From NCBI RefSeq assembly GCF_006345805.1, contig NW_021826850.1, forward strand, positions 1 through 11,851: a DNA stretch of 11,851 bases, written 5' to 3'. Origin of the DNA: Octopus sinensis. Lineage: Eukaryota. The translations under genes were made by a program, and so were the position numbers. The notes below the pieces were generated by a model. The model saw nothing but the letters and a program-made list of their open reading frames with translations. It did no database searches and had not been told where the DNA came from. Below, piece by piece: positions 7,785-8,535 of the stretch (position 1 is the stretch's first letter; every line of letters begins with the position of its first letter).

Positions 7785-8535
7785 CATAAAAAAAACGGAG
7801 AAAAAGACAAGAAAAGCTGCAGTGCGAGGACGTGGTACATGCAAAGTAGAAATAAGACGCTCAGAGAAGGAGAGGAAGAGTGACTGTTTTACGTTTCGAG
7901 CAAAACTCTTCTTCGGAAACAGGAGATATAGGAAAGTCCAAAAGAAAAGGAAGATGGAGATAAAAATCGTCAACAGTCCACGTGTAGTTACATTTTGGAA
8001 TGACAGGAAATAGATGGACAAAGAAAAAGTGCTTTCTGAGACAGGAGAGTGTAAAGAATGGTTGATATCCGTGTGTATGAGTGGGTGTGCGCGTGTGTGT
8101 GTCTCATTTTATTTAACATATACATGCTCACACACGACCCACATTAAACTCACGCATACTATTATCGAACCGGTCCTTCCGTAGCACTTACATAGCCCTC
8201 CTTGCCACTTTGGGTCTTCTGGATACCAAAACCTCTCATATACATATACATATATATATATTAATAAATGAAATAAAACATATGCATATATATAAACATA
8301 TATGTACGTACCTACCTCTACATGTACATATACACGCATATATGAGTACAGGACACCAAAGGGACGTCGAACACAAAGAGAAACGAAAACATAGACACAA
8401 ACCAAAGGAACTGGACATTTTAAAAAAAAACAAAAAAAAATGGAGTACAGGACAATTAACACAAAGAAAAAAACCCTTCTTCAGTCGCTATGGTTTCATC
8501 TACTCTACGTTTCGAAGGATATTGTCAATCCTTAA
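7785..8535 (-). mobile_element. Probable non-coding PLE-derived element or pLTR remnant(s) carrying hammerhead motifs
   Basis: Hammerhead motif at 7922-7884, partial motif at 8533-8502, T-rich - strand, internal microsatellites and a repeated 12-mer gagtacaggaca at 8344 and 8443. Boundaries are approximate. Confidence 0.5.
7884..7922 (-). ncRNA. Minimal type I hammerhead ribozyme (PLE-type, no helix III loop)
   Basis: - strand reads CTGTTT-CCGAAGA-A-GAG-TTTTG-CTC-GAAA-CG-TA-AAACAG: perfect 6-bp stem I, core CYGANGA (U4 to C), stem II GAG/CTC, GAAA, palindromic ACGU, cleavage triplet GUA. Confidence 0.8.

What the first reader, a model, noticed from the sequence alone, without database searches (positions are those of the whole stretch)
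7884..7922. Nearly intact minimal hammerhead ribozyme hidden on the minus strand
Seen: CUGUUU CCGAAGA A GAG UUUUG CUC GAAA CG UA AAACAG, with a perfect 6-bp stem I, short stem II and helix III reduced to the palindrome ACGU. Known: Penelope-like elements carry minimal type I hammerheads with vestigial helix III that self-cleave as dimers. Inference: this is a self-cleaving motif of a cephalopod PLE-derived family, with a non-canonical C at position 4 and an extra A after the core. It may depend on a second copy (tandem or in trans) to cut after GUA, between + coordinates 7890 and 7889.
Basis: partly seen in the sequence, partly recalled or inferred. Interest (0 to 1): 0.75.

Follow-up and report, generated by a model that had tools for sequence, protein, structure and literature searches.

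The report
Variant-core hammerhead in Neptune retrotransposon
This is a worn copy of the small hammerhead RNA motif known from the tails of Penelope-type jumping genes; the unusual part is that most of the roughly 27,000 related copies counted in this genome carry a changed core letter predicted to slow cutting, which would make them a natural test of whether these elements need to cut their RNA.

Summary
The 39-nt motif is there as described and is not chance (0.003-0.05 hits per shuffled window). It is a minimal type I hammerhead (Cervera and de la Peña consensus) at the 3' end of a decayed Neptune-type Penelope-like element: 17 of 37 loci picked by endonuclease DNA alone carry this 3' end downstream on the same strand. 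The window copy is a lone, 5'-truncated fossil, about 10% diverged from its subfamily. The extra A is standard, and the sixth stem I pair is nearly private. C4 was inherited: it marks the window's clade (54 of 63) and separate younger clades. Genome-wide exact counts are C4 5,757, canonical U4 4,066, and a sister lineage with U6 16,673, so only 15% of 27,040 matches have the CUGANGA that the published descriptor requires. Catalytic G5/G8/G12, the stems and the ACGU palindrome stay fixed between lineages, and stem I shows one compensatory change. In 30 of 30 copies picked from downstream sequence, the DNA runs through the cut site. Best reading: a slow, probably protein-assisted ribozyme whose cutting is not needed to make an insertion. 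Cleavage is untested. The scan noted an A6C core in shark Penelope elements before.

The parts
7884..7922 (-). Minimal type I hammerhead motif, U4C core variant
   Evidence: matches the published min-HHR consensus except at position 4
7917..7922 (-). Stem I, 5' strand (inner 4 nt conserved family-wide)
7909..7916 (-). Core C3-C4-G5-A6-A7-G8-A9 plus the usual extra nucleotide 9.1; C4 is at 7915
7898..7908 (-). Stem II (4 bp, closed by G10.1-C11.1, one U.G wobble in this copy) with a 3-nt loop
7890..7897 (-). G12-A13-A14, the ACGU palindrome (helix III without a loop) and N17; predicted cut between 7890 and 7889
   Evidence: the cut site is inferred from hammerhead numbering and was not observed
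7884..7889 (-). Stem I, 3' strand (outer pair nearly private to this copy)
7775..8100 (-). 5'-truncated 3' end (pLTR / 3' UTR) of a Neptune-type Penelope-like element, ending in (TA)n; about 90% identical to its subfamily consensus over 213 columns

Best explanation
The motif is a minimal hammerhead at the 3' end of a decayed Neptune-type Penelope-like retrotransposon, and its C4 core letter was inherited from a source element that kept multiplying; it likely worked as a slow, protein-assisted or dimer-dependent ribozyme whose cutting is not needed to make an insertion, and this copy is likely an inert fossil. Shown: the identity of the motif, its link to the RT/GIY-YIG ORF, thousands of C4 and U6 copies, fixed catalytic letters between lineages, and copies that run through the cut site. 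Inferred: in the element's RNA the GUUU/AAAC and GAGC/GCUC stems form; two ACGU palindromes (tandem pLTRs, or two RNAs in one particle) or the element's protein complete helix III; cutting after GUH is slow; reverse transcription starts downstream on uncut RNA; and selection on source elements tolerates rate-lowering changes (U4C, A6U) but not changes at G5, G8 or G12.
For: Link to the element: RT and CxxxxCxxC-GIY-YIG remnants lie upstream on the same strand in L093, L182, L192 and L120; 17 of 37 loci chosen by endonuclease-linker DNA alone have the window-like 3' end downstream in sense (16 of 36 without L239, found earlier through the motif), against 2 of 30 loci from a GIY-YIG family search, dominated by other PLE families, with any match. 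C4 amplified: 5,757 C4G5 and 4,066 U4G5 of 10,367 exact matches, reversed-pattern control 0. C4A5 is only 2 of the first 100 rows, so the U4 copies are not mainly CpG decay of C4. On a tree built without the motif columns the window sits in a 96-supported clade of 63 rows (54 C4, 9 U4); 21 label changes against 52.8 for shuffles. Selection on the motif in source lineages: 29 of 29 constrained positions are identical between the AAGA and ACGA lineage consensuses, flanks 72.9% over 166 columns (about 1e-4); the differences fall on positions 4, 7, loop II and 17; the U6 lineage swaps a stem I G-C for C-G (13 of 69 rows). Uncut RNA as template: 30 of 30 copies picked by sequence downstream of the cut continue through it. 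Literature: the Anolis Poseidon hammerhead cuts only with protein, and core mutants still insert in vitro (PMC11167929); min-HHRs cut poorly even as dimers (PMC4209133); U4C lowers activity considerably yet allows viroid infectivity, and A6C gives low but detectable activity (PMC3088659).
Against: No cleavage or expression data exist for any copy. A pairwise-mutagenesis study reports low activity for the single and double mutants of the CUGA turn other than the C3-G8 swap (PMC9901934), so U4C or A6U on an already weak minimal scaffold may be dead. In 150-160 nt of context ViennaRNA gives stem I a probability near 0 in the window copy, and at most 0.16 in 20 of 21 scorable young copies. The double-hammerhead fold scores -12.3 kcal/mol against 2 x -6.6 for monomers. 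Covariation rests on one change in one lineage; 'pairs with a change on both sides' is not above shuffles (193 of 500). Most ACGA rows came from a pattern that fixes the motif, although the flank-picked set gives the same motif letters. No intact ORF of this family was seen in the regions fetched.
Confidence: 0.55

Rival explanations
1. Structure only: the C4 and U6 lineages have lost cleavage, and the fold and ACGU palindrome are kept as a binding or pairing site for the element's protein or a second RNA.
For: 85% of 27,040 exact matches have a changed U-turn; U-turn mutants show low activity; copies run through the cut site; hammerhead mutants still insert in vitro; most Naiads and Chlamys lack canonical hammerheads yet multiply (PMC8557442).
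Against: G5, G8, G12, A13, A14 and the C3-G8 pair are fixed in all four subfamily consensuses, and position 17 is A or U in 152 of 154 rows and G in 1: the pattern expected if chemistry still matters.
Confidence: 0.27
2. Efficient dimer-dependent self-cleavage: C4 is well tolerated and two copies cut each other.
For: Complete min-HHR architecture with a palindromic helix III; a dimer construct of a schistosome min-HHR shows some cleavage.
Against: That cleavage was low; 87 of 105 pattern-picked copies have no second motif within 1.5 kb and only 5 have one on the same strand; the window contig has no partner; no predicted energy gain for the dimer; 0 of 30 copies start at the cut.
Confidence: 0.11
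3. Neutral relic: the motif has no role in any recent source element and looks conserved only through common descent.
For: All copies seen are decayed (median 86-93% flank identity to their own consensus) and no intact ORF of this family was seen.
Against: The motif is far more conserved between lineages than its flanks (29 of 29 against 72.9%), changes fall on free positions, and stem I has a compensatory swap.
Confidence: 0.06
4. Chance match to a short motif in pyrimidine/purine-rich DNA.
For: Rfam finds nothing; the motif is short.
Against: Shuffle null 0.003-0.05 per window; more than 10,000 genomic relatives with reversed-pattern control 0; it sits where PLE hammerheads sit.
Confidence: 0.01

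Closest known systems
Minimal hammerheads (min-HHR) of metazoan Penelope-like elements (Cervera and de la Peña 2014, PMC4209133; seen: main text parts 1-2 of 4 and passages of supplementary file 2; file 1 could not be searched)
   Same: Type I topology, 4-5 bp stem I, U-rich 5' flank, extra nucleotide between 9 and 10.1, G10.1-C11.1, palindromic 15.2-16.2, location in the pLTR, mostly solo copies from truncated elements; Neptune elements are named as carriers.
   Different: Their descriptor requires cuganga and the core variant they describe in the parts read is U3-A8; here C4 (5,757 matches) and U6 (16,673) outnumber the canonical core (4,066). 'Octopus' does not occur in the supplement text searched.
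Poseidon hammerhead of Anolis carolinensis (Frangione et al. 2024, PMC11167929; seen: passages and section 3 part 2)
   Same: PLE hammerhead with a vestigial helix III; unprocessed RNA is the main template; no RNA ends seen at the cut site.
   Different: Poseidon clade, canonical CUGA turn, overlaps the ORF start, activity shown (protein-assisted). Here Neptune-type, 0.3-2.4 kb downstream of the endonuclease linker, activity untested.
Natural core-variant hammerheads: viroid U4C and phage A6C (as reported in Perreault et al. 2011, PMC3088659, passages and section 8; A6C kinetics in PMC7151607, passages; the original U4C paper was not held)
   Same: Same position 4 change; a change at the same position 6; reduced but non-zero activity.
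   Different: Those are rare single cases, in hammerheads with a helix III; here the changes were carried by retrotransposon source elements on a minimal scaffold, and position 6 is U, not C.
Non-LTR retrozymes of animals (bioRxiv 10.64898/2026.07.22.740005, part 1 of 5; PMC7229834, search listing only)
   Same: Type I hammerhead, high copy number, kinship with PLE pLTRs.
   Different: Retrozymes are tandem arrays of non-coding units; these copies are solo truncated 3' ends whose longer versions lead into an RT/endonuclease ORF.

Membership tests
PLE minimal hammerhead (min-HHR) | Core CUGANGA | tested here: not met
   Window reads CCGAAGA; it fails the published descriptor. U4 relatives (4,066 matches) meet it.
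PLE minimal hammerhead (min-HHR) | GAAA-N-N-U-H with palindromic 15.2-16.2 | tested here: met
   GAAACGUA; commonest pair C-G in 47 of 69 rows
PLE minimal hammerhead (min-HHR) | Stem I 3-7 bp; stem II 3-7 bp closed by G10.1-C11.1; extra nucleotide before 10.1 | tested here: met
PLE minimal hammerhead (min-HHR) | Covariation among family members | tested here: inconclusive
   One lineage-level compensatory swap in stem I (13 of 69 rows); cell counts exceed 500 of 500 shuffles, pair counts do not
PLE minimal hammerhead (min-HHR) | Lies in the pLTR / 3' end of a PLE, in sense to the ORF | tested here: met
   (shown for relatives; the window copy itself is truncated)
PLE minimal hammerhead (min-HHR) | Self-cleavage after NUH as a dimer or with protein | not testable with these tools
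   No raw RNA reads were listed; needs a bench assay
Neptune-type EN+ Penelope-like element | [quoted passage not shown] | tested here: met
   The L093 fragment aligns to intact 775-883 aa PLE proteins (31%, E 8e-17 to L169); L168 scores RVT_1 (E 1e-6, just under cut-off) and GIY-YIG. Two family fragments alone hit no Pfam family.
Neptune-type EN+ Penelope-like element | CX2-5CxxC motif in the RT-EN linker | tested here: met
   C-x4-C-x2-C readable in L232, L238 and L253; definition from PMC8557442
Neptune-type EN+ Penelope-like element | Placement in the Neptune rather than the Nematis clade on an RT tree | not tested
   No reference PLE proteins were at hand; both clades share the linker motif
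Neptune-type EN+ Penelope-like element | Microsatellite-flanked ends, 5' truncation, inverted partial copies | tested here: met
   inverted pieces in L031, L233 and L247
Non-LTR retrozyme | Head-to-tail tandem units each with a hammerhead, no ORF | tested here: not met
   No tandem repeat over the motif in the window; 87 of 105 copies are solo; longer copies lead into an ORF

The most novel reading that the evidence does not exclude
The most successful hammerhead-bearing Penelope-like lineages in this genome repeatedly fixed U-turn changes (U4C in more than one lineage, A6U once) while keeping every catalytic guanine, because the element's protein substitutes for the U-turn or because slow cutting favours copying. 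Variant-core hammerheads, invisible to standard searches, would then be the commonest form in some animal genomes and a ready allelic series for what PLE ribozymes do.
Probability: 0.3. Interest if true: 0.68.

Novelty: new variant of a known kind. Interest (0 to 1): 0.43.

Why it matters
The role of hammerheads in Penelope-like elements is open: they may process tandem RNA or merely ride along (PMC8557442). Here one superfamily offers canonical, U4C and A6U versions on nearly the same scaffold, each amplified to thousands of copies, so one set of cleavage assays, with and without protein, would say whether amplification needs cutting. It also shows that CUGANGA descriptors would miss about 85% of the matches counted in this superfamily. 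The window copy itself is an ordinary fossil.

Tried and rejected
Rfam: no hammerhead family reaches E<=10. The decayed PLE on the + strand of the window (5434-6930) is not the parent: it is on the opposite strand and matched 0 of the 74 other loci then held. The intact-ORF Neptune family (L143, L166-L168) is not the parent either: it has its own U3-A8 hammerhead; its closeness to our motif in L166 and L184 is separate insertion. L144 (motif upstream of an endonuclease) is likewise adjacency across microsatellites. 'C4 is private to this copy' and 'U4 copies are only CpG decay of C4' were both rejected. A single origin of C4 was rejected by the AU test (p 0.007, 50 rows against 72), but the groups were named after the tree was seen, the tag-based grouping left 26 C4 rows in neither test set, 5 of 159 rows were dropped, and the direction of change is unknown. 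Sequencing runs: no RNA holder listed; laying contigs of X10, X11, X12 and X1 mixed in other family copies and cannot show RNA ends, so it is no evidence either way. The copy-level mismatch rate (core 10 of 240, flank 81 of 866) was not used, because subfamily differences and truncated copies inflate the flank figure. A look-up of earlier findings by sequence returned nothing. Primary U4C kinetics (Ambrós and Flores 1998; Nelson and Uhlenbeck 2008) were not held, so no fold-change is quoted. The contig ends with the window, so no neighbouring DNA could be checked.

Full report
Observation. It is the only hit of a relaxed type I hammerhead descriptor in the window; 300 dinucleotide shuffles give 0.047 (relaxed) and 0.003 (strict) hits per window. 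Rfam lists no hammerhead. Against the min-HHR consensus in the supplement of Cervera and de la Peña (U-rich flank, short stem I, CUGANGAH, G...C stem II, GAAAN, palindrome, NUH) the only departure is C at position 4; the 'extra A' is standard. Among 154 aligned relatives the inner four stem I pairs are general, the fifth is present in about half and the sixth in 5; stem II is normally GAGC/GCUC.

The repeat. The motif lies in a stretch of about 325 bp (7775-8100, minus) with 4,875 first-look candidates in the 2.7-Gb genome; the best 39 other matches are 80-86% identical. Copies end in (TA)n and start at varied points. That the animal is an octopus-like cephalopod rests on my recall of its repeats and on other notes of this scan, not on a test.

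The parent. Longer copies extend 5' through a CA-rich and an AT-rich tract. In L093, L182, L192 and L120 this leads, on the same strand, into remnants of a reverse transcriptase and a GIY-YIG endonuclease. The L093 fragment aligns to intact PLE proteins of this genome (31%, E 8e-17), one of which scores RVT_1 and GIY-YIG. I then picked loci by endonuclease-linker DNA only (37 regions covering 38 of its 40 hits, leaving out the query locus and one short hit). In 17 of 37 the window-like 3' end lies downstream in sense, and none has only an antisense downstream match; 2 of 30 loci from a GIY-YIG family search had any match. The linker carries C-x4-C-x2-C, the motif of Neptune and Nematis elements (PMC8557442). 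Neptune is my call from that motif plus the microsatellite ends; no RT tree was built. The window copy is thus a 5'-truncated 3' end, 90% identical to its subfamily consensus.

Position 4. In the window's AAGA lineage (277 exact matches; first 100 listed, counted by hand) positions 4-5 are TG 78, CG 9, TA 5, CA 4, other 4. With a 3' tag enriched for the window's subfamily (75 of 75 listed) they are CG 35, TG 27, CA 11, other 2. Over all A6-type matches: C4G5 5,757, U4G5 4,066, total 10,367, reversed control 0. Of 30 young copies picked without regard to the motif, 14 have C4; of 15 readable endonuclease-linked copies, 8. On a tree of 157 copies without the motif columns, the window lies in a 96-supported clade of 63 rows with 54 C4, nested among U4 copies, and further C4 clades lie in the younger ACGA lineage. 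Sampling was enriched for C4 and for window-like copies. One C4 clade is rejected (p 0.007), with the caveats given under Tried and rejected. A sister lineage with U at position 6 has 16,673 exact matches; its 3' flank is homologous to the ACGA lineage (8 of 10 copies above all 200 shuffles; only 2 of 10 against the window's own 3' flank), and L271 has a related endonuclease upstream. The canonical core is thus 4,066 of 27,040 matches (15%). These are exact-pattern counts, so lower bounds that favour young copies.

Signs of selection. The four subfamily consensuses share 14 of 14 core columns against 57.5% of 193 flank columns. The two main lineages share 29 of 29 constrained motif positions against 72.9% flank identity, and differ at 4, 7, loop II and 17. 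Position 7 takes all four letters in the U6 lineage. The U6 lineage has C-G where the others have G-C in stem I (13 of 69 rows); this is one event, and pair-level counts do not beat shuffles. Part of this conservation is built in by the search patterns; the flank-picked set gives the same motif.

Signs against ready cleavage. 30 of 30 copies picked by sequence downstream of the cut run through it, and most begin some 60-85 nt upstream of the core. 87 of 105 copies have no second motif within 1.5 kb. The window's contig is the window itself and holds no second intact motif. In context the upstream pyrimidine tract is predicted to pair with the purine-rich core (stem I probability about 0; at most 0.16 in 20 of 21 scorable young copies), and the double-hammerhead fold is not favoured over two monomers. 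No raw RNA reads were available.

Mechanism. I commit to a slow, assisted ribozyme (0.55). Changes carried by source elements are at positions where natural variants are reported to keep low activity (U4C in a viroid, A6C in a phage; PMC3088659; PMC7151607; I found no data on A6U), while G5, G8 and G12 do not change between lineages. The tested Poseidon hammerhead cuts only with protein and is dispensable for insertion in vitro (PMC11167929). The main rival is that the variants are dead and only the fold is kept (0.27), since U-turn mutants score low in deep mutagenesis (PMC9901934). This particular copy is probably inert under either reading.

Comparison and novelty. It works like, and sits where, PLE min-HHRs do, but fails the CUGANGA criterion, so I file it as a variant, not a plain member. 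It is not a retrozyme (no tandem units; linked ORF). Paper searches listed no report of C4 or U6 cores in PLEs, nor of cephalopod PLE hammerheads beyond an Rfam count in giant squid (PMC6962438, passages). The library lacks most subscription papers, and supplementary file 1 of PMC4209133 and the supplements of PMC8557442 were not seen. A review (PMC6155905, passages) added nothing on core variants. Earlier notes of this scan describe an A6C core in shark Penelope elements (unchecked), which suggests variant cores may be general.

Verdict. A real feature of a known class, in an ordinary fossil copy; the genome-wide dominance of variant cores is the part worth following. Interest 0.43.

Noticed in passing
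window 5434-5770 and 6090-6930 (+): Decayed Penelope-like ORF of another family (thumb-like and CNC...CPL / GIY-YIG-like segments, read by eye from recalled motifs; Pfam GIY-YIG E 0.05), split by a 318-bp repeat at 5772-6089 that is 96% identical to copies in L002 and L004.
   Followed up: partly
window about 7457-7531 (+): A second, more decayed hammerhead on the opposite strand (A at position 8, long stem II, broken palindrome) inside a high-copy repeat; an intact relative is in L167.
   Followed up: partly
window 8238-8521 (-): A repeat ending in a GAAACGUA half-core at 8513 with no CUGANGA upstream; relatives in L005, L147, L153 and L157 also show none in the 45 nt upstream. It may belong to the permuted hammerheads that other notes of this scan describe.
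   Followed up: no
window 9417-10313 and 10314-11200: Direct duplication with 882 identical aligned bases, no mismatch and 20 gap positions: the pattern of a long-read assembly artefact or a very recent tandem duplication.
   Followed up: partly
L143, L152, L155-L158, L163, L165, L167-L169: Neptune-type families with intact 775-883 aa ORFs; the commonest carries a U3-A8 hammerhead 0.7-1.1 kb downstream of the endonuclease start. A possible protein source for assays.
   Followed up: partly
L270-L279 and genome-wide: Sister lineage with U at core position 6, all four letters at position 7 and a compensated stem I; 16,673 exact matches.
   Followed up: partly
L280-L309: 5' ends of short copies cluster about 60-85 nt upstream of the core, often right after a microsatellite; this may mark the start of a pLTR transcript or a preferred stop of reverse transcription.
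   Followed up: no
269 fetched loci (1.06 Mb): 108 distinct minimal hammerheads with a palindromic helix III against 4.5 in shuffled loci; about 70 belong to the superfamily studied and the rest to many other families with different stems and palindromes.
   Followed up: no
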